DNA of 51,920 nucleotides from a virus. This document shows, one piece after another, positions 2,528 to 42,475 of the stretch. The position numbers and the translations under genes are program-made. The notes beneath the pieces are model-generated. The model was not told where the DNA came from. It was given only the letters and a program-made list of their open reading frames with translations, and ran no database searches. The first letter of the stretch is position 1. Every line of letters begins with the position of its first letter. The stretch lies in the UHGV virus genome UHGV-0124386. One strand, written 5' to 3'.

Positions 2528-3949
2528 TTAAAAAGATGCGTTGCTCTGGCTGTTTCGTGGGGAGAATCGACTTGCCGCCGGACGTTGTTGCATTGACTGA
2601 ATGCAAGCGGACGCCGCGCGGGCCTGGTCGCATGGGATGATGTTGCCGTTATCGTCAAACCGCTGGTAAACAGTCCCCGTTTTCCCGTGACGGTTTTTTG
2701 AAACGATGATCTCCATATATTCGCGGGCAACCGATTGTTCGTTGTAGTAGCCGTCGCGGTAGACCATGATGATCCGGTCTGCGTCCTGTTCAAGATTACC
2801 GGAATCACGCAGATCAGAATTGTTCGGGCGCTTGTTCGGTCGTTCCTCAACGCGGCGGGATAATTGCGCCAGTGCCGCCACTGGCACGCGCAACTCTTTC
2901 GCCATCATTTTCAATGACCGCGACAATTGCCCTACGGCGAGATCATGACGTTCGGCCTTAGCCAGTTTCATTAACCCGATATAGTCAATCATCACCATCC
3001 CCAGGTTATGATGGTCCTGTTTCATCCGTTCGACGGTGGCGCGTATTTCCTCGACCGTTAACTGCGATGCGTCAACAATCCACACATCGAGATCGGCAAG
3101 GGCACTCATTCCCTGGGCGACGTGCGCCCAACCTTCGTCATCCAGTTTTACCGGATTACGTAGGCAATCCGTTGATAAGTTCCCAGCGCCAGCGATAGCA
3201 CGTTCAGTCATCTGATCGAGCGACATTTCAAGCGTGAACAGCAAAACGCCGACCCGCTGACCTTCGCCTCCAGGGTATGGGCGTTCAGCCGCCGCGCGGG
3301 CAATTGCCAACGCCAACGCCGATTTACCAGACCCTGGGCGTCCGGCGATAAGCACCAGATCAGTAGCGTTAATGCCGCCTAACATTTCGTCGAGTGGGTC
3401 AATCCCTGTTTTGATGTTGTCAGAGTTCACGCCACACTCCATGCGTTTACTTAACACTTCCGTGTATTCCTGGACCGCATCGCGCAACAGCACCGGGATA
3501 ATTTGATCTTTTGTTACCTTTAATTTTGAATACCGGGAATCAAAATCTTTCATCGTCTCCCTGACGACTTCAAGCGTCCCTGTTTCCAGCTTGTAGCGAA
3601 TGTCTTCCATTAGTTCCAGCATTTGCCGACGCTGGTGTTCTTCCTGTAGTAGTTGCGCATATCCTTTCAGGTTGGCAGCAGAAGGGCACGATCGTGCCGT
3701 TTGCATTAGCGGTACAAAGTTTTCATTGCCAATCTCATCGCCAACCAATAACGCGTCGATAAGATTCCTGTTTCTGGCTTGCGCCCGGATAACTTCAAAC
3801 GCACGTTTATAAAGCGGGATCGTGAACACTTCAGGATCAAGTGTGGCGAGAACATCTTGAGCGTTAGGAGTAAGGCCACCTAACAGCAGCCCGCCGATAA
3901 CTGACGCTTCACGTTCCTGCCGTAGTGAGTTTATTTGCTCAGTTACCAT
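2528..3949 (-). CDS. DnaB-family replicative DNA helicase (P22 gene 12-like, 473 aa)
   Basis: Walker A GRPGSGKS, DnaB-like motifs (MIDYIGLM, SRRVEER, DSGNLEQDADRI, IVSKNRHG); position in replication module. Confidence 0.9.
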   Translation of the reverse strand: MVTEQINSLRQEREASVIGGLLLGGLTPNAQDVLATLDPEVFTIPLYKRAFEVIRAQARNRNLIDALLVGDEIGNENFVPLMQTARSCPSAANLKGYAQLLQEEHQRRQMLELMEDIRYKLETGTLEVVRETMKDFDSRYSKLKVTKDQIIPVLLRDAVQEYTEVLSKRMECGVNSDNIKTGIDPLDEMLGGINATDLVLIAGRPGSGKSALALAIARAAAERPYPGGEGQRVGVLLFTLEMSLDQMTERAIAGAGNLSTDCLRNPVKLDDEGWAHVAQGMSALADLDVWIVDASQLTVEEIRATVERMKQDHHNLGMVMIDYIGLMKLAKAERHDLAVGQLSRSLKMMAKELRVPVAALAQLSRRVEERPNKRPNNSDLRDSGNLEQDADRIIMVYRDGYYNEQSVAREYMEIIVSKNRHGKTGTVYQRFDDNGNIIPCDQARAASACIQSMQQRPAASRFSPRNSQSNASF

Positions 3950-3967
3950 TATGTTATTGCCTCCTGT

Positions 3968-5086
3968 TTACAAAATGGAATATTCAGGGTAATAAACAAA
4001 GCGCCCGATCTCCCCATGATCCGGGCTGTAAATAATCACCGCTGCCAGACGCCGCGACCGCCAGCCGCCATTAATTGAATAAGCGTCTTTACCCGCTAAT
4101 GTGCCGTGATACTCAACAACGCCTAGCGATGATTCAATCAGCCGTTGATGGTGCCAGTGCCCGCAATGAGCGTAAACCGCCGCAGACTTGCCGAAATCCT
4201 CACGCCAGTCAGCTACGCAAGCAGACAATAAATTTTCCGGCTTTTTGATAGTGTGCCCGTGGTGGTAAGCAAGGAATGTTTTGCCGTACTGTGTGTGGTG
4301 GACGATAGCAGGGGACACATCAACAGTTACGCGCGGTTCATCTTCGTAAAAAGCCGCCAGCGCAGCACGTAGCCAAATCATACCAGACTGGTCGTGATTG
4401 CCTGATAGTACCTGGATTTCAATATCCCTATGATTTAACAACATCTTCCCGACAGCCCGCCGGACCGACCTGATCGCTACATAGACAAGTTTTGCATAGC
4501 GCGAATCGCAATCAAGAACGTGATTGCTTGATGGCGTAACTGGCAACAGCCCGTCAGTGTGAAGAACATCCCCACCGAGAAGCAAAACAGCTTTCTCAGA
4601 CATCGGCGCAGCGCCTACAGCGTAGTCAAAGAATTCATTCAATACGCGCTCAGCGATCCCAGTGTCGTAACTCTCGCCGCATTCAGCTTTATGAGCAAGC
4701 GCCCCGATATGCAGATCAAATACCGGATAAAGGGCCAGGCTTTTTTGAAAATCAATTTCCGGCACTGGCACGGCCTCCGCGCGTGGGATTTCTTCAGTGA
4801 AAGCGTCGCGGGCCGCTTCCATTAGCCTTTCCATTTCATCGCGATCACGGGCTGTTTTAATCCAGCGCATGACTGTATTCCCATCCTTATCGACAAGAAC
4901 CGACTCACCAGTAACGCCAAAACCAGGGGCGCGGCGCGTTGATAATAAACCGCGTTTCGCCAGCTTTGCGCCCAGCCGCTCGACGTTGCGTTTTGACATG
5001 CCATATTTTTCAGCGATCTGCTTGTACGTTAAACCGTTGTTATATTCAGCGATCAATTGCTCATCGCTGATTTTTCTTTGCGACAT
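3968..5086 (-). CDS. N-terminal HTH domain fused to calcineurin-like metallophosphoesterase (372 aa)
   Basis: N-terminal HTH-like segment (LTYKQIAEKYGMSKRNVERLGAKLAKRGLL); phosphoesterase motifs DLHIG, GGDVLH, GNHD, HHGH, GHWHH; SD GAGGA upstream of ATG at 5086. Confidence 0.6.
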   Translation of the reverse strand: MSQRKISDEQLIAEYNNGLTYKQIAEKYGMSKRNVERLGAKLAKRGLLSTRRAPGFGVTGESVLVDKDGNTVMRWIKTARDRDEMERLMEAARDAFTEEIPRAEAVPVPEIDFQKSLALYPVFDLHIGALAHKAECGESYDTGIAERVLNEFFDYAVGAAPMSEKAVLLLGGDVLHTDGLLPVTPSSNHVLDCDSRYAKLVYVAIRSVRRAVGKMLLNHRDIEIQVLSGNHDQSGMIWLRAALAAFYEDEPRVTVDVSPAIVHHTQYGKTFLAYHHGHTIKKPENLLSACVADWREDFGKSAAVYAHCGHWHHQRLIESSLGVVEYHGTLAGKDAYSINGGWRSRRLAAVIIYSPDHGEIGRFVYYPEYSIL

Positions 5087-5119
5087 AATGTTATTTCCTC
5101 ATGTTTACATTTTGTATAT

Positions 5120-6043
5120 TTATTGACAGCAAACAATCTCTTTATATGTTTCTTCTACCATGTCGAATACTTCCGGCCTGTAATAAAAAAATTCAGTGCT
5201 ACCATCAAACTTAACAGGGAAGTTTATTTTATAGTCACTGAAAGCATCGTGCATTTTGCTTTCTATTTCCTGCATAATCTCAGTAGGCCCATTCCATGTT
5301 TTAACTACCTGTAAATCAGTCAGCCTTACACCTGCCTTACGAGCACTTTTAAATACTCTGTTCCTCCTTTCGTTCTCTTTTACGCTTACACCAATTTTCA
5401 TTTGTGTAGGCACTTCAAGATCATCAACCATGATGTAAAGTTTTCCGTTGTAGTGTGATAAAAACCCGTATTTAGCGCATTTCGGGCAACCGCGCCCGCT
5501 CTTAATGTCTCTAGGTTTAGCCGACCACTCATGATCACAAACCTTGCAGCGGCATAATACTTTTGTACTGTTATTAACTATTTCAACCAGCACTTCAATA
5601 TCAGGATTAACCTTAGCAATAGCCGATATTTGTTCTTCATGCGATATTTTTTTGCCTTGCGCTCGTTTTAGCACCGCACATTTCTGGCAACCGCTCCCGA
5701 TCTTAAGGCTTTTAGGTGTAGAATACCACTCATGATCACAAACCTTGCAGCGGCATAATACTTTTATTTTGTCGCCGGTAATTTCCCCAAGCACTTCAAT
5801 ATCAGGATTAACCTTAGCAATAGCCGATATTTGTTCTTCATGCGATAACTTCATATTCCCAGCGCATTTCTGGCAACCACGTCCATATTTAATATTGCTA
5901 GGTGTAGCCGACCATTCATGGTTACAAACTTTGCAGCGACATAATACTTTTGTACTGTTATTAACAATTTCCCCTAACACTTCAACATCAGGATTAACTT
6001 TCGCGATAGCTGCAACTTGTTCTTCATGTGTTAACTTGCGCAT
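5120..6043 (-). CDS. protein with three tandem zinc-ribbon repeats and a C-terminal T5orf172 (GIY-YIG-like) domain (307 aa)
   Basis: Three ~60-aa repeats HEEQ.AAIAKVNPD.EVLGEI..KVLCRCKVC.HEW..P..K.G.GC.KC; C-terminal KIGVS...GSTEFF signature resembling T5orf172; strong SD AAGGAG. Confidence 0.6.
   Translation of the reverse strand: MRKLTHEEQVAAIAKVNPDVEVLGEIVNNSTKVLCRCKVCNHEWSATPSNIKYGRGCQKCAGNMKLSHEEQISAIAKVNPDIEVLGEITGDKIKVLCRCKVCDHEWYSTPKSLKIGSGCQKCAVLKRAQGKKISHEEQISAIAKVNPDIEVLVEIVNNSTKVLCRCKVCDHEWSAKPRDIKSGRGCPKCAKYGFLSHYNGKLYIMVDDLEVPTQMKIGVSVKENERRNRVFKSARKAGVRLTDLQVVKTWNGPTEIMQEIESKMHDAFSDYKINFPVKFDGSTEFFYYRPEVFDMVEETYKEIVCCQ
5476..6028. repeat. triplicated ~190-200 bp tandem repeat inside the zinc-ribbon/T5orf172 gene
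   Basis: Antisense ORFs 5544.. and 5745.. both begin MQRHNTF and a third copy follows; protein shows three near-identical modules; coordinates approximate. Confidence 0.7.
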
Positions 6044-6182
6044 CGCTCCAACTCCTTAAGAACATCATGCGCGCTACAACGCAAAAACCCACCGCGACAC
6101 CCGTTTGCACAGGTTGCAGTGTCTTATTGCGTCAGAGACGCCATCAGGTGGCTAATTTTCGATTTACAGAATGGTAGGTAGG

Positions 6183-6284
6183 TTATGGATTGATTAGCAG
6201 GTACAGACCGCCGAACAAGGCGACGTTAACAGCGATTGCCGCAGCGATGGCAAAAGCCAGGGCGAAAACGTGTTTACCGTCCAT
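6183..6284 (-). CDS. small hydrophobic peptide (33 aa) MDGKHVFALAFAIAAAIAVNVALFGGLYLLINP
   Basis: Hand-translated; SD GAGAGGA about 8 nt upstream of ATG; single predicted TM segment; below ORF-track cutoff. Confidence 0.3.
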   Translation of the reverse strand: MDGKHVFALAFAIAAAIAVNVALFGGLYLLINP

Positions 6285-6417: not shown

Positions 6418-7470
6418 TCAAAGAACGCCAGCGCGCGTATCACGTAGCGTTTTTGGTTTAAGCAGGAAATCAAGTGTCGCGGTGAAGCCATCGCCGAAGT
6501 AAAAATCTGAAGCCGTGTTTTTGAACGTTTCGAAGTAGGCGACAAAGCCGTTAATGCTTTTGTCTTTCAGGTAGTCAGTGAACGCATAGATCTTGCGTTC
6601 AAGATCCCGATCCAGTTCGGCAGGTGGTAACAGGCCGTCAAACGTGCTGTTAAATGCTTCCACCACGTCGGCAGCGTTTACAGTGGCTGACAGTTTGCGC
6701 CATTGTTCAGCATCAGTCAGATACCCATCAAATTTAGTTACCCGGCAAATGTTGATAGGCTTAGGTACTCCACCACGGCTACGCCATTGGGTTAAAGCCC
6801 ACTCAATTACTAACGTGATCTCATTCTCCGTATACGCTTTACGTGTTTTTGTTTCTGTCAGTAGTTCTACGAATGGCTTAGCATCACGACATTTGCATCC
6901 TGCCTTGTCGTTGTAGAAGGCAAGGCAACGCAATGCCGCTTCGTTTACGCCATCCTGATTGACCATTTTTTGTTCATTTTCGACAATACACGAAGTGTAT
7001 ATATCTTTTTCTCTTTCTTTTTCTACTTCTAATTCTAATTCATGACCCTTTCCTGACCCGGTCATGACCCTATCATGACCTTTTTGTGTTGGATTGATTA
7101 ACTTTTCTAATTTTAATTGCTCCTTCGCTGTGTTTATGGCGGCCCTGTAAGCGCTTTTAGAAGTCATTGATTGGTCCAGCCTTTTCAATAACTTTAAACA
7201 AGTTATGTGGCCTTGAGAACATTCAAACAAACCAATTTCGATGAAGTATTTCATCATTTCTTCTATACGTTTTTCAGTAGATCCGACGTTTCGCGCAATT
7301 ATTCTTGCGTCATGTCGTAGGTCAAAAGTTAGATTGTGCTGATCTACGTCATAAGTTATTAGTTCTAGGCAATACCAATAAAGCCCGTACCCTTCCAGGC
7401 CATAATCTAACAAAACGTTTTGAAGTTTTTCATCGCGGTTCGCATCGCTGTCATGCTTAAACCACTTCAT
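6418..7470 (-). CDS. replication initiation protein / phage replisome organizer (O-like, 350 aa)
   Basis: N-terminus MKWFKHDSDANRDEKL typical of phage replisome-organizer N-terminal domain; position upstream of helicase. Confidence 0.7.
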   Translation of the reverse strand: MKWFKHDSDANRDEKLQNVLLDYGLEGYGLYWYCLELITYDVDQHNLTFDLRHDARIIARNVGSTEKRIEEMMKYFIEIGLFECSQGHITCLKLLKRLDQSMTSKSAYRAAINTAKEQLKLEKLINPTQKGHDRVMTGSGKGHELELEVEKEREKDIYTSCIVENEQKMVNQDGVNEAALRCLAFYNDKAGCKCRDAKPFVELLTETKTRKAYTENEITLVIEWALTQWRSRGGVPKPINICRVTKFDGYLTDAEQWRKLSATVNAADVVEAFNSTFDGLLPPAELDRDLERKIYAFTDYLKDKSINGFVAYFETFKNTASDFYFGDGFTATLDFLLKPKTLRDTRAGVL

Positions 7471-7473
7471 AGA

Positions 7474-7731
7474 TCATCCCTCCGGCAACATCACTACATA
7501 GACATCACTGAATGCATCAAGACGACAAACAAATCCTTTATCCATTAACGCGGCGAAGGCATCATGTACCGTATGAACAGGAAGTTCACACATTGCGGCT
7601 ACTTCTTTGCGTGATGCATCATGTACCCGTCCTTTGTTATCTGCCTTTTCAGCCAGAGCCATTAAGACAAGTTTTTGAATCGGGCTGTTAAGTTTTACGT
7701 TCCATACTTCATTCATCATGTGCATACTCAT
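7474..7731 (-). CDS. HTH DNA-binding regulator at Cro/CII position (85 aa from ATG 7731; ORF track extends to TTG at 7809)
   Basis: Strong SD AGGAGA 7 nt upstream of ATG at 7731; HTH-like segment SRKEVAAMCELPVHTVHDAFAALMDKGFV; first gene of the leftward operon. Confidence 0.5.
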   Translation of the reverse strand: MSMHMMNEVWNVKLNSPIQKLVLMALAEKADNKGRVHDASRKEVAAMCELPVHTVHDAFAALMDKGFVCRLDAFSDVYVVMLPEG

Positions 7732-8036
7732 CGTGTTTTCTCCTATGGTTAGAGTGAACGCGCGGGCGGGCATCCCATTAGCATTAGATAGCAGTGACTG
7801 ACCGCTCAACAGATCCCGCCGTTGCGTGATATTTGTTTTTCGCTTCGCAGCGACACCGGATTTTTAAAGAGCTTAAGGTAAGTGCCTTTTTGTGCCTTCC
7901 GTTATCTTTTTCCTTGCGTCTTTGCAAGTATGGCCTTACCTTGTCTGCAAGTTTACAAAATGGAATTTTAAGATCAAGGCTTAAAATACACGTTTTGTGA
8001 CTTGCATCAAACTTTTTGAGGTTATAGGGTAGCGAC
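7732..8036. promoter_or_regulatory. divergent immunity control region between Cro-like gene and CI-like repressor
   Basis: About 300 bp non-coding; contains inverted repeat ATTTTAAG-N7-CTTAAAAT (about 7964-7986) extended by ACAAAA/TTTTGT arms, a GTTTACAAAATGGAAT motif copy (7951-7966) and a TTGCAT -35-like hexamer near 8002. Confidence 0.55.
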
Positions 8037-8684
8037 ATGAAAACAAAATGGTATGACTTAGCAAAGCAGCTCATGCGGGCGCAGGGCATGAGCCAGGATT
8101 CGCTCGCGGATCGTATGGGGATAACTAAAGGCGGCCTGTCACACTGGCTGAACGGTCGCCGAGAGCCAAATCTTGAAGATATTGCGCGGATTATGCGCGA
8201 GCTTGGTCGTCGGCAGTTTACTGTTACACATGATGGCATGGTCATTGATGATTCTGTTTCTAATACACTTCAGGCCGTGCCGCCGCGTGATTTAGGTAGT
8301 TACCCGGTTATTGACTGGAAGGACACAGTAAACAATATGGATGACGCAAGGCGTTCAGCATTACGACACGTTACGACTAGCGTTATTTGTTCAGATGACA
8401 GTTACTGGCTGGTTGCCAAAGGTGAATCAATGAACGCGCCGCAGGGGTTGAGCATCCCGGCGGGGACGATGATACTTGTGGACCCGCACGCGCCAGCTAT
8501 TGACGGCAAACTGGTTATAGCCCAGCTTGAGGAAGGGCAGATACCGACGTTTAAACAGTTGATTATTGATGGAGGTCAAAGGCTTTTACGTTCGCTCAAT
8601 CCGCTGTATCCGCCAATCCCTATGAATCCAGAATCAAAAATTATAGGCGTGGTGGTTGATGCGAAGATCGTAAACCTGCCATAA
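8037..8684 (+). CDS. CI-like repressor, HTH (XRE) + S24 LexA-like peptidase domain (215 aa)
   Basis: N-terminal HTH (QDSLADRMGITKGGLSHWLNGRREP), C-terminal S24 signature GESMNAP with downstream Lys; followed by terminator. Confidence 0.85.
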   Translation: MKTKWYDLAKQLMRAQGMSQDSLADRMGITKGGLSHWLNGRREPNLEDIARIMRELGRRQFTVTHDGMVIDDSVSNTLQAVPPRDLGSYPVIDWKDTVNNMDDARRSALRHVTTSVICSDDSYWLVAKGESMNAPQGLSIPAGTMILVDPHAPAIDGKLVIAQLEEGQIPTFKQLIIDGGQRLLRSLNPLYPPIPMNPESKIIGVVVDAKIVNLP

Positions 8685-9505: not shown

Positions 9506-9625
9506 ATGGTTGTTCAGGCGCTTCAATTCAAACTGGCAGTAGCGGAAATGCTTCACGATGCCGAAATGTGGAGCGCCGCGAATAAAGCCTTATACATAGT
9601 GTTAACAGCACGGGAGATTAAATAG
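9506..9625 (+). CDS. small protein (39 aa) translationally coupled to erf (arf-like position)
   Basis: Hand-translated MVVQALQFKLAVAEMLHDAEMWSAANKALYIVLTAREIK; SD AAAGGTGA; stop overlaps erf GTG start (TAGTG). Confidence 0.35.
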   Translation: MVVQALQFKLAVAEMLHDAEMWSAANKALYIVLTAREIK

Positions 9626-10266
9626 TGAAAACAGAGTTACATAAAAAGCTATGGGCGATTCAGCAAACGCTGAACGCGCCGAAAAATCAGCGTAATAATT
9701 TTGGTGGATATAATTACAGGTCGGCGGAGGATATTTTAGAGGCGGTTAAACCACTGCTTCAAAATATCACGCTGACTGTTAGTGATGAAATTGTCCTGAT
9801 CGGCAATCGCTATTATGTGAAAGCAACGGCGACGCTAAGCGACGGTGAAGACGTAATAGCGGTAACTGCTTATGCCAGGGAGGAAGAAAGCAAGAAGGGT
9901 ATGGACGCCAGCCAGCTAACAGGAGCAACATCAAGTTACGCGCGTAAATATGCTTTGAACGGTTTATTCTGTATAGATGATGCTCGCGATCCTGATACTG
10001 ATGCTTACGCGAAGCAGACAGGCCAGCAGCCGCGACAACAGAAAAACCCACCAAAACAACAACCGCAGCAGAAGAAAGCGCCGCCAAATCCTGATGAAGT
10101 GTTAGCACGTTTCTGTGATGCAGCAGCGAAAGCGCAGGACGCTAACAAGCTGCGTGAAATATTTGGCAAATGCTGGAAATTACTACCGGAAGGATCGGAG
10201 CATCGAATCAAGGCAAAAGATGTTTATGACATCCGGGTAGCAGAGCTTAACGGGGAGATGGGTTAA
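9625..10266 (+). CDS. erf: ERF-family single-strand annealing protein (213 aa, GTG start)
   Basis: ERF-like N-terminal region (FGGYNYRSAEDILEAVKPLL); Q/P-rich linker; position next to ssb. Confidence 0.75.
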   Translation: MKTELHKKLWAIQQTLNAPKNQRNNFGGYNYRSAEDILEAVKPLLQNITLTVSDEIVLIGNRYYVKATATLSDGEDVIAVTAYAREEESKKGMDASQLTGATSSYARKYALNGLFCIDDARDPDTDAYAKQTGQQPRQQKNPPKQQPQQKKAPPNPDEVLARFCDAAAKAQDANKLREIFGKCWKLLPEGSEHRIKAKDVYDIRVAELNGEMG

Positions 10267-10685
10267 TGAGTTTAAATTCAATCACGCTGGGCGGGAATAT
10301 CGGTAATGATATGGAGGTTCGCTACACACAAAACGGGAAAGCGATTGGTAGTTTTCCGTTAGCTGTAACGAATGGCTACGGCGATAATAAGCGGACAATG
10401 TGGGTCACTTGCCTTGTATTTGGTGAGCGTGCGGAAAAATTAGCGCCACATATCCGCAAGGGTGGAAAAATAGTGGTAAACGGTCGCTTGGATGTTCGGC
10501 AATATGACCGGAACGACGGCACGAAGGGAACGGCGGTAGAAGTGGCGGTTAACGAATTCGAATTTATGAACGTTAACCAACAGGGCCAGCAGCAAGGCCA
10601 GCAGCAGAAAGCGCCACCGCCGCAGCAGAATAACAACGGGAATAATCCGCCTCCGATGGACTTCGACGACGATATTCCTTTTTAG
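10266..10685 (+). CDS. ssb: single-stranded DNA-binding protein (139 aa)
   Basis: OB-fold SSB pattern, Gln/Pro-rich tail ending in acidic DFDDDIPF. Confidence 0.9.
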   Translation: MSLNSITLGGNIGNDMEVRYTQNGKAIGSFPLAVTNGYGDNKRTMWVTCLVFGERAEKLAPHIRKGGKIVVNGRLDVRQYDRNDGTKGTAVEVAVNEFEFMNVNQQGQQQGQQQKAPPPQQNNNGNNPPPMDFDDDIPF

Positions 10686-14166: not shown

Positions 14167-14706
14167 ATGAAAAATGATTACGGCGGCAGCCATACGCCGA
14201 AAGAAATAAAGGACTTATGGCAAACGCCAAAACCCGTTTTTAGAGGAATGGATCGAGAATTCGAGTTCGTCGCGGATGTGGCGGCAAACAAGGCAAACGC
14301 ATTAATACCGCGATATATAACCGAAGAAATGGACACGCTCCATTATCCGTGGGGAGCGGTGGCGATGCCTGGTGAGTATGTCTGGATGAATCCGCCATAT
14401 TCTAATCCGGGGCCATTCGTTGATAAAGCGGCGCTTGAACACAGCCGAAATCATATCGGATGCGTAATGTTATTGCCCGCTGACATTTCTGTTAGCTGGT
14501 TTATGAACGGCGTGGAGACGGCAAACGAATGCCGATTAATCACGCGCGGGCGGCTGGCGTTTATCAATGCTGCAACAGGGAAACCAGTAAGCGGGAACAA
14601 TAAGGGGAGCTTGTTCCTGATCTGGCATCCACGATGCAGACATGAATGTATTTTCACGCAGATAACACGTAAAGAGCTATATGCAAGAGGTGCAGAAAAT
14701 GAATAA
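14167..14706 (+). CDS. phage-type DNA N6-adenine methyltransferase (Dam-like, 179 aa)
   Basis: Catalytic NPPY motif (WMNPPYS) and upstream WQTP motif characteristic of phage N6A methyltransferases. Confidence 0.8.
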   Translation: MKNDYGGSHTPKEIKDLWQTPKPVFRGMDREFEFVADVAANKANALIPRYITEEMDTLHYPWGAVAMPGEYVWMNPPYSNPGPFVDKAALEHSRNHIGCVMLLPADISVSWFMNGVETANECRLITRGRLAFINAATGKPVSGNNKGSLFLIWHPRCRHECIFTQITRKELYARGAENE

Positions 14707-15019: not shown

Positions 15020-15503
15020 CAGGTTATTAGCCTGCGTTTATGTCGCCGTTTTCGTTATCATCAATCTTATTGTTAACCACTGTGGCACGTGGGTAATTCC
15101 GATCACCACGGTAGCCGCCGTGTGTGTCAATATGATGATTCGTGATTTTCTGTTATATGACGGCGGCCTTAAATGGTCGGCTACAACATGCGCCGCCGCT
15201 GGCGCAATCACGGTGCTGATAAATTACGACGCCGGAATGGTGGCGATCGCGTCATTCGTCGCGGTTGTTTCCGGTGCGCTTATTTCTGGCGGCGTTTACC
15301 GGGTTTTACCTGGTGATTTCGATTCTAAACGCTGGCCTGCAAATATAGCGTCCGCCATTGGCGATGCGTTAATTTTCCCAACGCTATCGTTTATGGCATT
15401 CATGCCGGAAATATCAGCTATGCAATTCATCTCAAAAATGGCGGCGGTAACGGTGATCACTATCATCATGCGCCGCTACTTTACGTTCGAGGGTAGGAAA
15501 TGA
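15000..15503 (+). CDS. polytopic membrane protein with weak resemblance to the VUT/YhhQ (DUF165) family (167 aa)
   Basis: 4-5 hydrophobic segments; local pattern similarity to recalled E. coli YhhQ (N.LV...G.TW...D..R; A..S..G..D.L.F); not verified by search. Confidence 0.4.
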   Translation: MKMVAIDRLLACVYVAVFVIINLIVNHCGTWVIPITTVAAVCVNMMIRDFLLYDGGLKWSATTCAAAGAITVLINYDAGMVAIASFVAVVSGALISGGVYRVLPGDFDSKRWPANIASAIGDALIFPTLSFMAFMPEISAMQFISKMAAVTVITIIMRRYFTFEGRK

Positions 15504-16264
15504 GTGGGCTTAGAAATTGGGTGGTGTGGTCGCTGTACGACGGCAGCGGATACGCCGTTAAAGATTGGGCCGACGCTGGTTATAAATGCTATTGCTTCAA
15601 CTATGATGGCGCTAATCACGGCGATTATGAAGGCGTCAAAATCATTCATCCGAACATTGAGTATATCAACGTATGGATTGACAGCCATTTCCTGGTAATG
15701 TTCTCCCCTGAATTGTCTGTTTATCCAGATCCTGACATTATCCTGGGCTTTCCTCCGTGCGACGATCTTGCGGTGTCCGGCGCTCGCTGGTTTGCTGATA
15801 AGCGGAAAAAAGATCCTTACTTCCAGCAGAAGGCGGCATACAACGCAAAACTGGTAGAAACGCTTGCTGATATGTACCACGTCCCGTGGATGGTGGAAAA
15901 TCCGGTAGGTGCGCTGTCAACGTTATGGCGCAAACCTGATTTTATCTTCAACCCGTGCGCTTACGGTGGCTACCTGCCTGAAGACGACAAACACCCTGCT
16001 TTCCCTGAATACATAGCTGCCCGCGACGCATACACGAAGAAAACTTGTATCTGGTGCGGGAATGGATTTAAGCAGCCGCTATTCCGGTCTGTACCTATGC
16101 CGGATGAATGGGAAGACAGCAAACAGCACGCGAAGTTAGGAGGAAAGTCGAAACGCACTAAGATGATCCGCTCACTAACGCCGCGCGGCTTTGCCCGTGC
16201 TGTATTCTTGGCTAACGACCGGGCCATCACTCGTACTACGCTTAACCGCATTTTACCGGACTAA
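15500..16264 (+). CDS. DNA C5-cytosine methyltransferase-like protein with non-canonical motifs (254 aa)
   Basis: Motif I-like SLYDGSG, motif IV GFPPCD (PC catalytic Cys, D in place of Q), motif VI ENP, motif IX-like RSLTPRGFARAVF; short variable region. Confidence 0.55.
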   Translation: MSGLRNWVVWSLYDGSGYAVKDWADAGYKCYCFNYDGANHGDYEGVKIIHPNIEYINVWIDSHFLVMFSPELSVYPDPDIILGFPPCDDLAVSGARWFADKRKKDPYFQQKAAYNAKLVETLADMYHVPWMVENPVGALSTLWRKPDFIFNPCAYGGYLPEDDKHPAFPEYIAARDAYTKKTCIWCGNGFKQPLFRSVPMPDEWEDSKQHAKLGGKSKRTKMIRSLTPRGFARAVFLANDRAITRTTLNRILPD

Positions 16265-16423: not shown

Positions 16424-16600
16424 ATGTCTTTTGATGATTACCAATGGCATGACGACTATGAACGAGAAAGCGTCATGCGTGCAATGTGCAATGTATGCAG
16501 CACGAAGAAAGGAGGCTGTAACGAGTGCAACGAATGCTTAGAACATTGGCTAAGGGCCGGACACGCCGAAAGGCTGAACGAAACAGAGAATCAAAAATAA
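16424..16600 (+). CDS. small Cys-rich protein (58 aa), NinF-like position
   Basis: Hand-translated MSFDDYQWHDDYERESVMRAMCNVCSTKKGGCNECNECLEHWLRAGHAERLNETENQK; SD AAAGGAGAG; immediately upstream of ninG. Confidence 0.35.
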   Translation: MSFDDYQWHDDYERESVMRAMCNVCSTKKGGCNECNECLEHWLRAGHAERLNETENQK

Positions 16601-16614
16601 TCGGGGTGGTTTTT

Positions 16615-17220
16615 ATGCAAAACCCTAAAAAACCCATAAGACGCCGTTGCAAATGCTGCGGCGTTTTTTTTGAGCCTAAATATCACAATCAAACGTGGTG
16701 CAGTGACGAATGTCTGGAAGAACTGAAGTTTGATCAGCTATGCCGCGACCGTGAGAAGGCTATGAAGGCTATGGAACGGAAGAAACGCCGTGATAGCCAG
16801 CGTGAAGAACGCAACCGGAAGCGTAAACAGTTAAATCCGCGTAGTTATTGGATCAAACAAGTTCAAAATGTATTTAACGCCTATATTCGCGAACGTGACG
16901 CGCGGTTGCCCTGTATATCCTGCGGGACTTACTACGGTGAGCAATGCGGATGGGATGCGGGCCATTATAGGACGGTTGCCGCCGCCGGACACCTTCGCTT
17001 TAACGAGGATAATTGCCATAAACAATGCAGGCACTGCAACCAGACATTAGACGGAAATATAGGAGGATATCGCCCGGCACTGATTCGAAAAATTGGCCTC
17101 GCCAGGGTGGTAGCACTGGAGAACAACAATGATACGCATAAATGGACGATCGCAGAATGTAAGGAGCTAATAAACATCTATCAGGCGAAATTGGACGCCT
17201 TAAGGAGAAAGGCAGCATGA
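16615..17220 (+). CDS. ninG: NinG/Rap recombination-promoting protein (201 aa from ATG 16615)
   Basis: Aligns with recalled lambda NinG (PRSYWIKQ, RDARLPCISCGT, WDAGHYRT, LRFNE.N.HKQC, HKWTIEECK); ORF track frame 16525..17220. Confidence 0.85.
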   Translation: MQNPKKPIRRRCKCCGVFFEPKYHNQTWCSDECLEELKFDQLCRDREKAMKAMERKKRRDSQREERNRKRKQLNPRSYWIKQVQNVFNAYIRERDARLPCISCGTYYGEQCGWDAGHYRTVAAAGHLRFNEDNCHKQCRHCNQTLDGNIGGYRPALIRKIGLARVVALENNNDTHKWTIAECKELINIYQAKLDALRRKAA

Positions 17221-41763: not shown

Positions 41764-42475
41764 TCATAACGCCCCCTTCAAATATGTCAATCCCTTATCA
41801 GTGACGAATGAGTGATTAACCTGGTTTTCATCCGTCATGATGATAAATAACTTTTCCTGTAGGTATTTCGCTTTAGGGTACAGCGTTAAGCAGACCTGGT
41901 ACAGTATCCCGCGCTCAATCAGCAAATCAATAAATTCGTGTTCATGATAACCGATAAGGCGGGCGGCCTGTTTCAACGTGTATACATAATCACTGTGATT
42001 GCGCCGCGCCATGTTCTTTATAGTACCCTCCGATTTCGTGCGCTTCTTTTGAGGCGTTACACGCATCAAGGTAGCTATTAAAACACCCTATATGCCGATA
42101 CACCCCACTAATCATCACTCTTACAATCCATTTTTTATTCGCTTCATTCCACCATACGCCAATGCACCCGCTCTTATTCCTTCTGGATAACGGCATATTT
42201 TTCATGTTTTCTTGTTTTGTTATCATTCTTAGATTTTATATTCTGTTATCACTCCTTATATGGTTTATATGGTCAATCACATACCCTTCTGGGATCGGGC
42301 CGTTGTGCATTTCCCAAATTATGTTGTGTGCCTTATACTTTTTATTTTGCACACAGATAACAATATACCCGTTGTGCAAACTTCCGGCTTCCTTGCCGTT
42401 GGTAATTCTACCGCTTGTTGGTATCTTCCAGAATAATTTCCCTTCATTATAAGTAAAGATGTTGTACCATTTCAT
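41764..42475 (-). pseudogene. disrupted HNH-AP2 homing endonuclease (HNH_3 domain, AP2 domain, C-terminal HTH region split into three ORFs)
   Basis: ORF 42236..42475 carries the HNH_3 core (HNGYIVICVQNKKYKAHNIIWEMHNGPIPEGYVIDHINHIRSDNRI) and stops at an in-frame TAA where the family motif DNRIENLR has Glu; ORF 41990..42226 continues NLR-MITKQENMKN and has the AP2 pattern (SGCIGVWWNEANKKWIVRV...GCFNSYLDACNASKEA); ORF 41764..42069 is frameshifted relative to it. Confidence 0.6.

What the first reader, a model, noticed from the sequence alone, without database searches (positions are those of the whole stretch)
3968..6284. Two-gene insertion (zinc-ribbon x3 T5orf172-like protein + HTH-metallophosphoesterase) plus a membrane micro-protein between replication initiator and helicase
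In P22/lambda-type replication modules the initiator (O/gp18) is directly followed by its partner (P or DnaB-type helicase). Here three genes intervene on the minus strand: a 33-aa hydrophobic peptide (6183-6284), a 307-aa protein with three tandem CxxC...CxxC zinc-ribbon repeats and a C-terminal T5orf172/GIY-YIG-like domain (5120-6043, own strong SD AAGGAG), and a 372-aa fusion of an N-terminal HTH with a calcineurin-like metallophosphoesterase (3968-5086; DxH, GDxxH, GNHD, GHxH motifs). A putative nuclease paired with a phosphoesterase and DNA-binding domains could be a DNA-processing, anti-defence or abortive-infection module rather than core replication machinery.
Basis: partly seen in the sequence, partly recalled or inferred. 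Interest (0 to 1): 0.7.

Follow-up and report, generated by a model that had tools for sequence, protein, structure and literature searches.

The report
Homing-endonuclease cassette beside conserved phage phosphoesterase
The supposed two-gene insertion in this temperate coliphage's replication operon is one mobile, homing-endonuclease-type nuclease gene in a swap-in/swap-out slot, flanked by two genes (a 33-residue membrane peptide and an HTH-metallophosphoesterase) that are fixed parts of the operon; this is ordinary for phages.

Summary
All three ORFs and their motifs are real. The window is an mEp021-like (mEpimmI) temperate coliphage. The "two-gene insertion" reading fails.

- **372-aa HTH-metallophosphoesterase.** It lies upstream of DnaB in all 40 related viral contigs: directly in 37, with an HNH gene between in 3. 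It belongs to PHROG 704 (T1 gp064-like), found in 2043 phage records and mostly not next to DnaB.
- **33-aa peptide.** It is also conserved, and its variation is mostly synonymous.
- **307-aa gene.** This is the only insertion. It is a 947-nt cassette (5123-6069) with exact conserved flanks. In relatives the slot is empty or holds Bro-N/pRha-ANT, DUF559 or MarR-like genes.

The 307-aa protein has three CapR/DUF4379 zinc-finger beads plus a T5orf172 (GIY-YIG superfamily) nuclease domain. This is the homing-endonuclease class described by Barth, Dunham and Seed (2023). Alleles with one and two beads are exact in-frame repeat-recombination deletions of this allele. Frameshifted copies exist. Identical alleles sit beside diverged neighbours. 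The two genes do not travel together, and PADLOC finds no defence family.

Verdict: new member of a known kind, low-to-moderate interest. The biochemical role of the phosphoesterase remains unknown.

The parts
6183..6284 (-). 33-aa hydrophobic (single transmembrane-like) micro-protein gene. It is a conserved part of the operon, not part of the insertion.
   Evidence: Found intact in 35 loci as 24 nucleotide alleles. Most variable codons change only synonymously. It is annotated in MagusPhagus, mEp515 and mEp013. No family match.
6070..6182 (-). Conserved non-coding leader forming the left flank of the cassette slot. It ends in GCGTTGTAGCGCG (6070-6082), the exact left boundary.
   Evidence: The same sequence precedes every cargo type and the empty site. 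No covariation-supported RNA structure and no Rfam family.
5123..6069 (-). Mobile cassette of 947 nt: a 26-nt leader carrying its own AAGGAG, plus the 307-aa gene without its stop codon.
   Evidence: The empty sites in MagusPhagus, L013, L015, L019 and L046 join GCGTTGTAGCGCG to TAAATATACA through only 12 nt (TTTTACGGAAAA). Other loci carry unrelated cargo between the same two flanks.
5468..6043 (-). Three tandem CapR/DUF4379 treble-clef zinc-finger 'beads' (about residues 1-64, 65-131 and 132-192), predicted to be the DNA-recognition module.
   Evidence: Pfam DUF4379 E 2e-21 and CapR E 7e-15, three stretches each. A 201-nt tandem repeat at 85% identity. The AF2 model shows three repeated helix/three-strand units at pLDDT 80-90. 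All twelve Cys are invariant or nearly so.
5120..5467 (-). T5orf172 (GIY-YIG superfamily) nuclease domain, residues about 193-307.
   Evidence: 36 of 37 homologues match T5orf172 and 35 of 37 match MUG113. G200, Y203, K216, G218, R226, E261, H265 and E284 are invariant. pLDDT exceeds 90. BFVD hits carry the names T5 Orf172, GIY-YIG and Hef-like homing endonuclease. Slx1 matches at probability 0.85 in the PDB.
5087..5122 (-). Conserved right flank of the slot (TAAATATACA..TGTAAAC..GAGGAA), including the ribosome-binding site of the phosphoesterase gene.
   Evidence: Present downstream of every cargo type and in empty sites.
3968..5086 (-). 372-aa protein: N-terminal HTH (about 8-44), a beta-hairpin/helix linker, and a calcineurin-like metallophosphoesterase domain (about 114-365). 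It is a fixed operon member belonging to PHROG 704.
2528..3949 (-). DnaB-type replicative helicase, the downstream neighbour. The 18-nt junction with the phosphoesterase gene is a second homing-endonuclease insertion site, empty in this window.
   Evidence: Pfam DnaB_C E 2e-77. An HNH endonuclease lies at this junction in mEp515, mEp021, L042, L044 and L045.
6418..7470 (-). Lin1244_N/O-like replication initiator, the upstream neighbour, carrying internal iteron-like repeats.
   Evidence: Pfam Lin1244_N E 7e-11, plus PHROG 20981, 428 and 345. An 11-nt repeat x4.2 at 7039-7084.

Best explanation
The interval is not one module. It is a conserved replication-operon backbone (initiator, 33-aa membrane peptide, HTH-metallophosphoesterase, DnaB) with one cassette slot between the peptide gene and the phosphoesterase gene. 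In this phage the slot holds a free-standing T5orf172-family homing-endonuclease-type gene.

Proposed mechanism for the nuclease (inferred): the three zinc-finger beads act as a 'beads on a string' DNA-recognition module that reads an extended target. The C-terminal GIY-YIG-like domain cuts nearby. The most likely target is the cassette-less or differently occupied allele of a co-infecting or resident related phage. Recombinational repair from the cassette-bearing genome then copies in the gene and adjacent markers. Gain and loss of beads by unequal recombination between the repeats changes target specificity.

Proposed role for the phosphoesterase (inferred, weaker): a DNA-tethered, metal-dependent nuclease or phosphodiesterase that serves phage DNA replication or recombination generally. 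It is not a dedicated partner of either the nuclease or DnaB.

Shown here: the domain architecture, the exact cassette boundaries, presence/absence/replacement of the cassette, the bead-number deletions, decayed copies, and independent assortment of the two genes. Inferred: cleavage, homing, and the phosphoesterase substrate.
For: Architecture: three CapR/DUF4379 repeats plus T5orf172. This is the class defined in PMC10448857, where 87% of T5orf172 homing endonuclease genes carry CapR, DUF723 or DUF4379 zinc fingers, often repeated.

Slot census of 40 related viral contigs: 15 carry the nuclease (1, 2 or 3 beads; 2 are frameshifted), 14 a Bro-N/pRha type, 5 a DUF559 type, 1 a MarR-like gene, 4 are empty and 1 is not assessable. 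Boundaries are exact and shared by all.

Bead dynamics: L010 is a precise 387-nt in-frame deletion between repeats 1 and 3 of this very allele. L017 is a 201-nt deletion consistent with repeat 2/3 recombination (protein sequence: repeat 1 plus a repeat 2/3 chimera). mEp013 has 1 bead and mEp021 has 6. Among the 120 best homologues, 22 have 2 beads, 67 have 3, 23 have 4, 4 have 5 and 3 have 6.

Mobility: the allele is 99.8-100% identical in three E. coli genomes whose adjacent phosphoesterase gene is only 93.7-97.1% identical. An identical protein (P0196) sits next to two different initiator types. Mosaic breakpoints lie within about 110 nt of the cassette.

Site fidelity: the two close E. coli homologues whose contigs could be read (66% and 71% identity) occupy this same slot.

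Phosphoesterase as backbone: upstream of DnaB in 40 of 40 loci, in 2043 phage records and a large diverse family. It sits in replication/recombination regions of T1 and ST44-like phages that have no DnaB.
Confidence: 0.6

Rival explanations
1. The zinc-bead T5orf172 protein is a domesticated accessory weapon rather than an actively homing gene. It would be a sequence-directed nuclease expressed from the early operon that cuts competing prophages, superinfecting relatives or satellites, as ICP1 Odn does. The slot would be a diversifying inter-element conflict locus.
For: The slot alternates with Bro-N/pRha-ANT and DUF559 genes. In ICP1, the Odn/CRISPR anti-satellite locus is accompanied by covarying Bro-N or Rha-like genes (PMC8263062). 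Most copies are intact, and catalytic-type residues are invariant. Alleles are far more diverged than the flanks. Bead number changes rapidly. PMC10448857 documents domestication of this family.
Against: No candidate target element was identified. The DNA-binding beads are the generic homing-endonuclease type rather than a module captured from a rival's replication initiator, as in Odn. Frameshifted copies and empty sites show the gene is dispensable. The two close homologues examined keep to one site, as expected of a site-specific selfish element.
Confidence: 0.28
2. One reading: the nuclease and the HTH-phosphoesterase form one inserted two-gene DNA-processing, anti-defence or abortive-infection module.
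For: The two genes are adjacent and co-oriented, and both plausibly act on DNA.
Against: The phosphoesterase is present in 40 of 40 related loci, while the nuclease is present in 15 of 39 assessable ones. The phosphoesterase occurs in 2043 phage records without this neighbour. In Vibrio phage K187 the two family members lie about 7 kb apart. No PADLOC hit for either protein. The cassette boundary falls between the two genes.
Confidence: 0.04
3. The HTH-phosphoesterase is a helicase loader or replisome-organising partner specific to the phage DnaB, analogous in role to lambda P or SPP1 G39P.
For: It is invariably upstream of DnaB with an 18-21 nt gap in this phage group. The best-aligned structural neighbours include polymerase B-subunits and PolD DP1, which are replisome scaffolds. 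The phage has no other obvious loader.
Against: Homologues 58-71% identical in T1, ST44-like phages and other Drexlerviridae sit in genomes that use SF2 helicase/primase systems with no adjacent DnaB. In Dhillonvirus and Jerseyvirus the gene lies next to terminase or tail genes. All metal-binding residues are invariant, implying catalysis rather than scaffolding. HNH genes can separate it from DnaB.
Confidence: 0.1

Closest known systems
T5orf172-family homing endonuclease genes of vibriophage ICP1 and other phages (e.g. gp174, gp165; Barth, Dunham and Seed 2023, PMC10448857)
   Same: A terminal T5orf172 nuclease domain plus repeated CapR/DUF4379-type zinc-finger DNA-binding beads. Variable presence among close relatives. 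In-frame deletions by recombination between bead repeats. Frameshifted copies. Location beside essential replication genes and at mosaic boundaries.
   Different: Here the host is a temperate, Nus-dependent coliphage group (mEpimmI) rather than a lytic phage. The gene shares its insertion slot with non-nuclease cargo. One allele lineage shows 1, 2 and 3 beads, and 6 beads occur in mEp021. No activity data exist.
Odn (ICP1 gp88) and CapR (PLE): domesticated derivatives of the same family (PMC8263062; Netter et al. 2021, as cited in PMC10448857)
   Same: A T5orf172 nuclease with conserved catalytic Arg and Glu (Odn), and a CapR-type zinc-finger DNA-binding domain (CapR).
   Different: Odn uses a captured RepA_N domain to target a satellite origin, and CapR lacks the nuclease. 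The window protein keeps generic beads plus an apparently intact nuclease, and no target element is known.
Free-standing GIY-YIG homing endonucleases of T4 (I-TevI, Seg proteins) (own knowledge)
   Same: Modular nuclease-plus-DNA-binding architecture. An intergenic, free-standing position next to conserved genes. Expected co-conversion of flanking markers.
   Different: A different subfamily (T5orf172) and a different DNA-binding module (tandem treble-clef zinc fingers rather than zinc-finger linker + HTH).
PHROG 704 'DNA repair exonuclease' / coliphage T1 CPTT1_064
   Same: 58% identity over the full length, with the same HTH + metallophosphoesterase architecture. An HNH endonuclease gene is often adjacent.
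   Different: In T1 the gene follows the SF2 helicase-resolvase-Dam operon rather than preceding DnaB. The function is untested in either phage.
SbcD/Mre11 and archaeal PolD DP1 nucleases
   Different: About 11-18% identity. No Pfam Metallophos hit. No SbcC/Rad50-like gene among the ORFs examined. The N-terminal HTH replaces the usual partner-binding regions. The fold search cannot exclude a small-molecule phosphodiesterase.

Membership tests
T5orf172-family homing endonuclease genes (GIY-YIG superfamily) | T5orf172/MUG113 nuclease domain at one terminus | tested here: met
   The window protein scores just below cut-off (18.1 vs 20 bits; 20.2 vs 22.3 bits). However, 36 of 37 homologues match T5orf172 and 35 of 37 match MUG113. 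BFVD structural matches at E down to 2e-25 are to proteins named T5 Orf172 and GIY-YIG.
T5orf172-family homing endonuclease genes (GIY-YIG superfamily) | Core catalytic-type residues conserved (GIY-like and YIG-like strands, Arg, Glu) | tested here: met
   G200, Y203, K216, G218, R226, E261, H265 and E284 are invariant in 37 sequences. The motif is kept in 114 of 120 homologues. Equating E284 with Odn E180 or I-TevI E75 is inferred from motif position, not from a structural superposition.
T5orf172-family homing endonuclease genes (GIY-YIG superfamily) | Zinc-finger DNA-binding domain(s) of CapR, DUF723 or DUF4379 type, often repeated | tested here: met
   Three DUF4379/CapR stretches and three repeated units in the AF2 model.
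T5orf172-family homing endonuclease genes (GIY-YIG superfamily) | Variable presence among closely related genomes at a defined site next to conserved or essential genes | tested here: met
   Present in 15 of 39 assessable loci, with exact boundaries, between the initiator and the phosphoesterase/DnaB genes.
T5orf172-family homing endonuclease genes (GIY-YIG superfamily) | Signs of instability (frameshifts, in-frame repeat deletions) | tested here: met
   L014 and L030 are frameshifted. L010 and L017 carry 387-nt and 201-nt in-frame deletions.
T5orf172-family homing endonuclease genes (GIY-YIG superfamily) | Site-specific cleavage of the gene-less allele and super-Mendelian inheritance (homing) | not testable with these tools
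   Needs nuclease assays and phage crosses. No discriminating target polymorphism was found in silico.
Calcineurin-like metallophosphoesterases (Mre11/SbcD-type nucleases) | Five metal-ligand motifs: DxH, GDxx(D/H), GNH(D/E), H, GHxH | tested here: met
   D124/H126, G172-D173..H176, G229-N230-H231-D232, H276/H278 and G309-H310..H312 are all invariant.
Calcineurin-like metallophosphoesterases (Mre11/SbcD-type nucleases) | Metallophosphoesterase fold | tested here: met
Calcineurin-like metallophosphoesterases (Mre11/SbcD-type nucleases) | Sequence-profile membership (Pfam Metallophos) | tested here: not met
   No Pfam or NCBIfam metallophosphoesterase hit at E<=0.01. No PDB sequence hit with a single sequence or a profile.
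Calcineurin-like metallophosphoesterases (Mre11/SbcD-type nucleases) | Specifically Mre11/SbcD-type: an SbcC/Rad50 ATPase partner and nuclease activity on DNA ends | tested here: inconclusive
Phage helicase loaders (lambda P, SPP1 G39P, DnaC-like) | Family-wide linkage to a DnaB-type helicase gene | tested here: not met
   Linked in 40 of 40 mEpimmI-like loci. Not linked in T1, JL1, Jerseyvirus, Vibrio or ST44-like phages, at 30-71% identity.
Known anti-phage defence or abortive-infection systems | Match to a catalogued defence protein family, and co-inheritance of the component genes | tested here: not met
   PADLOC gives no hit for either protein. The two genes assort independently.

The most novel reading that the evidence does not exclude
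The slot is a fast-evolving inter-element conflict locus of temperate coliphages. The zinc-bead T5orf172 nuclease would be a retargetable weapon against rival prophages or satellites, re-aimed by bead gain and loss, and interchangeable with Bro-N/pRha-ANT and DUF559 cargo. Together with the HNH site on the other side, it would bracket the phosphoesterase gene as a small 'homing-endonuclease island'. That could explain how this gene moved between lytic T1-like and temperate mEpimmI phages (66% protein identity).
Probability: 0.2. Interest if true: 0.55.

Novelty: new member of a known kind. Interest (0 to 1): 0.3.

Why it matters
This work corrects a tempting misreading. What looked like a nuclease + phosphoesterase 'module' is a selfish or accessory cassette next to a backbone gene. 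The locus is a clean natural series in a temperate coliphage group common in the human gut: an empty site, and 1-, 2-, 3- and 6-bead alleles, with two of the deletions exact. That series could be used to test how tandem zinc-finger beads set the target specificity of T5orf172 endonucleases, and whether such genes home in prophages. It also flags that the HTH-metallophosphoesterase family has no experimental function. The family is a core gene of T1-like phages, present in more than 2000 phage genomes and often flanked by homing endonucleases. None of this is surprising to a phage-genomics specialist.

Tried and rejected
- **PADLOC scan:** nothing for either protein.
- **Pfam/NCBIfam for the phosphoesterase:** only weak HTH hits.
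- **Sequence and profile searches of PDB chains:** only DUF4379 mitoribosome factors for the nuclease, and HTH fragments for the phosphoesterase.
- **Foldseek of the full-length bead protein against the PDB:** uninformative apart from a weak Slx1 hit, because the beads are flexibly arranged. The viral model library gave clear matches instead.
- **Phosphoesterase as the missing exonuclease partner of the phage's Erf annealing protein:** rejected. T1 carries RecE-like exonuclease + Erf + SSB in addition to its homologue.
- **Conserved leader as a structured RNA or terminator:** no covariation, no Rfam family, and only marginal terminator-like matches at chance frequency.
- **Search for a target-site polymorphism separating occupied from empty alleles at the junctions:** none evident.
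- **Literature searches for functional data on the phosphoesterase family (Drexlerviridae; SECphi27 escape mutants):** nothing found. The mEpimmI paper does not discuss this locus.
- **Contig look-up of P0134:** not on record.
Full report
**1. The observation**

The three minus-strand ORFs are where the finding says: 372 aa at 3968-5086, 307 aa at 5120-6043 and 33 aa at 6183-6284. They lie between a DnaB-type helicase (2528-3949; Pfam DnaB_C E 2e-77) and a Lin1244_N/O-like replication initiator (6418-7470). A small HTH gene (7474-7809) and a divergent cI-type repressor (8037-8684) lie beyond. The 307-aa gene has its own AAGGAG. G+C drops to 38-41% across it, against 50-53% in the phosphoesterase gene.

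**2. Which phage this is**

The region matches Escherichia phage MagusPhagus at 92.5% and the mEp phages mEp515, mEp013, mEp554, mEp044, mEp010 and mEp021 at 85-89%. These belong to the Nus-dependent, non-lambdoid 'mEpimmI' group of temperate gut coliphages (PMC11893012). That paper does not discuss this locus.

**3. The 307-aa protein**

- Pfam finds three DUF4379 'treble clef zinc finger' stretches (E 2e-21) and three CapR-homology stretches (E 7e-15). MUG113 and T5orf172 match at residues 210-295, just under cut-off.
- At family level the nuclease assignment is solid. 36 of 37 homologues match T5orf172 and 35 of 37 match MUG113.
- G200, Y203, K216, G218, R226, E261, H265 and E284 are invariant.
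- The AF2 model (mean pLDDT 85.8) shows three repeated helix/three-strand beads and a compact alpha/beta C-terminal domain at pLDDT above 90.
- Foldseek against viral models gives 246 hits at E<=0.001. Their names include T5 Orf172, CapR homology, treble-clef zinc finger, GIY-YIG nuclease and Hef-like homing endonuclease. The PDB search was uninformative apart from the GIY-YIG nuclease Slx1.
- This architecture is the T5orf172 homing-endonuclease class described by Barth, Dunham and Seed (PMC10448857). Their description covers repeated CapR, DUF723 or DUF4379 zinc fingers as 'beads on a string', recombination between bead repeats, and positions next to essential genes. T5orf172 nuclease activity that depends on the conserved Glu was shown for ICP1 Odn (PMC8263062).

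**4. The 307-aa gene is a cassette in a slot**

Isolates differ at this position. MagusPhagus has no gene there, mEp013 has a 1-bead version (178 aa), mEp021 a 6-bead version (495 aa), and mEp515 a Bro-N/ANT protein.

In 40 related viral contigs (phosphoesterase at least 90% identical) the slot holds:

| Slot content | Loci |
|---|---|
| Bead nuclease (1, 2 or 3 beads; 2 frameshifted) | 15 |
| Bro-N or pRha proteins, most with an ANT domain | 14 |
| 351-aa protein with a DUF559 endonuclease-like C-terminus | 5 |
| MarR-like 77-aa protein | 1 |
| Empty | 4 |
| Truncated contig, not assessable | 1 |

All cargoes lie between the same flanks. The left flank ends ...GCGTTGTAGCGCG (window 6070-6082). 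The right flank begins TAAATATACA... (from 5122). The cassette here is therefore 5123-6069. Empty sites retain 12 nt (TTTTACGGAAAA) that match the start of the Bro-type cassette leader.

**5. Bead dynamics and mobility**

- L010 is this very allele with an exact 387-nt in-frame deletion between repeats 1 and 3. The first 66 nt and last 479 nt are identical to the window allele.
- L017 carries a 201-nt in-frame deletion. Its protein reads as repeat 1 followed by a repeat 2/3 chimera.
- By a motif count, the 120 best database homologues have 2 beads (22), 3 (67), 4 (23), 5 (4) or 6 (3). 114 of the 120 keep the nuclease motif.
- The allele is 99.8-100% identical in three complete E. coli genomes whose adjacent phosphoesterase gene is only 93.7-97.1% identical.
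- L009 is identical to the window from the cassette rightwards but 87-96% identical to its left.
- L016 is identical on both sides except for a patch from phosphoesterase codon 38 to about DnaB codon 65.
- One identical homologue (P0196) sits beside two different initiator types.
- The two close E. coli homologues whose contigs could be read (66% and 71% identity) occupy this same slot. Distant ones (47% identity or less) occur in unrelated places in T5-like, Vequintavirus-like, Vibrio and Gram-positive phages. The beads alone are also fused to HNH nucleases.

**6. The 372-aa protein**

- It matches PHROG 704 'DNA repair exonuclease' over its full length (E 1e-137).
- No Pfam or NCBIfam metallophosphoesterase model and no PDB sequence matches it.
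- The five metal-ligand motifs are present and invariant in 36 homologues: D124xH126, G172-D173xxH176, G229-N230-H231-D232, H276/H278 and G309-H310xH312.
- The N-terminal roughly 45 residues form a three-helix HTH with only sub-threshold matches to sigma-70 region 4 and LuxR-like models.
- The family is large. tblastn finds it in 2043 phage records. 4316 clusters at 50% identity match at E<=0.001, typically 370-420 aa, with a conserved core from about residue 50 onward and a variable N-terminus.

**7. The phosphoesterase is backbone, not insertion**

In all 40 related loci it lies upstream of DnaB. In 37 it is directly upstream. In the other 3 an HNH homing endonuclease lies between, as in mEp515 and mEp021.

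Outside this group, homologues sit in other contexts:

| Phage | Identity | Context |
|---|---|---|
| T1 | 58% | Ends the SF2 helicase-resolvase-Dam operon; followed by an HNH gene |
| ST44-like Salmonella phages | 71% | Among DUF3987, primase, SF2 helicase, DUF3799 and Erf genes |
| Dhillonvirus JL1 | 44% | Directly upstream of terminase |
| Jerseyvirus | 38% | Among tail genes |
| Vibrio phages | 30% | Next to an HNH gene and lysis/head genes |

It is therefore neither a dedicated DnaB loader nor a partner of the bead nuclease. It is also not simply the exonuclease missing from this phage's Erf/SSB/NinB/NinG recombination set, because T1 has RecE, Erf and SSB as well as its homologue. I found no experimental paper on the family.

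**8. The 33-aa ORF**

It is intact in 35 loci as 24 nucleotide alleles. Variation is mostly third-position synonymous, so it is a real, conserved gene for a single-helix hydrophobic peptide. Its function is unknown.

**9. Interpretation**

The best-supported picture is a conserved backbone (initiator, 33-aa peptide, phosphoesterase, DnaB) with two hot spots for mobile nuclease genes. One is the cassette slot upstream of the phosphoesterase gene. The other is the phosphoesterase/DnaB junction, which is empty here.

The 307-aa gene is a T5orf172-family homing-endonuclease-type element. I infer that its beads recognise a DNA target and its nuclease domain cuts it. The cut would promote the element's own inheritance and nearby gene conversion.

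Two facts keep a domesticated 'conflict nuclease' reading alive at roughly 0.28. The slot also trades non-nuclease cargo at identical boundaries. And most copies are intact yet deeply diverged.

**10. Novelty**

Both proteins belong to described or catalogued families, and the evolutionary behaviour matches published descriptions of T5orf172 homing endonuclease genes. What is new is limited. It is the first description of this slot in mEpimmI phages. It is an unusually clean series of bead-number alleles. And it shows that the widespread HTH-phosphoesterase gene is repeatedly flanked by homing endonucleases. This is a new member of a known kind, of low-to-moderate interest.

Noticed in passing
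window 41990-42475 (-): An HNH-AP2-type homing endonuclease homologue, 40% identical to the mEp021 HNH that sits between the phosphoesterase and DnaB. It is split into two ORFs: 42236-42475 (the HNH half) and 41990-42226 (the AP2-like half). It looks like a decayed homing endonuclease gene.
   Followed up: partly
window 7004-7084 (inside the initiator gene 6418-7470): An 11-nt repeat TTCATGACCCT x4.2 (7039-7084) lies next to a T-rich 12-nt repeat (7004-7041). These are probably iterons plus an AT-rich origin inside the O-like gene, as in lambda.
   Followed up: no
window 3950-3967 (phosphoesterase/DnaB junction); L002 2951-3505, L004 4951-5454, L042/L044/L045 about 7121-7621: This junction is a second homing-endonuclease site. 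It is occupied by an HNH gene in mEp515, mEp021 and three viral contigs. In mEp515 and mEp021 the last roughly 70 codons of the phosphoesterase gene are diverged and the C-terminus is replaced, which looks like co-conversion. HNH genes also abut the homologous gene in T1, Vibrio phage 95E33-1 and several T1-like contigs.
   Followed up: partly
window 6070-6182 (-): A roughly 110-nt non-coding leader between the 33-aa gene and the slot is conserved in front of every cargo type. No covariation, no Rfam match and no convincing terminator were found, so its role (recombination flank, regulatory site or nuclease target) is unexplained.
   Followed up: partly
L016 vs window about 3750-4974: A contig otherwise 99.5-100% identical across the compared genes differs only in a roughly 1.2-kb patch. 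The patch runs from phosphoesterase codon 38 to about DnaB codon 65 at 91-95% identity. The phosphoesterase gene itself appears to be exchanged as a patch between the two endonuclease sites.
   Followed up: partly
L023/L025/L029/L037/L085, about 4900-5966: An alternative slot cargo: a 351-aa protein with no recognisable N-terminal domains and a DUF559 (Vsr-like, PD-(D/E)xK) endonuclease C-terminus. It may be another nuclease-type mobile gene using the same slot.
   Followed up: partly
window 9625-10685, 1081-1512, 16525-17220, 14167-14706, 15500-16264: The phage carries Erf, SSB, NinB/Orf, NinG/Rap and two DNA methyltransferases. No lambda-Exo or RecE-type exonuclease was seen among the ORFs examined.
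   Followed up: partly
window 3968-5086 vs T1-like phages: The phosphoesterase is 59-67% identical to that of lytic Drexlerviridae. tblastn with this window's initiator, helicase and HTH proteins gave no hits in those T1-like contigs. This suggests horizontal transfer of this single gene between lytic and temperate lineages.
   Followed up: no
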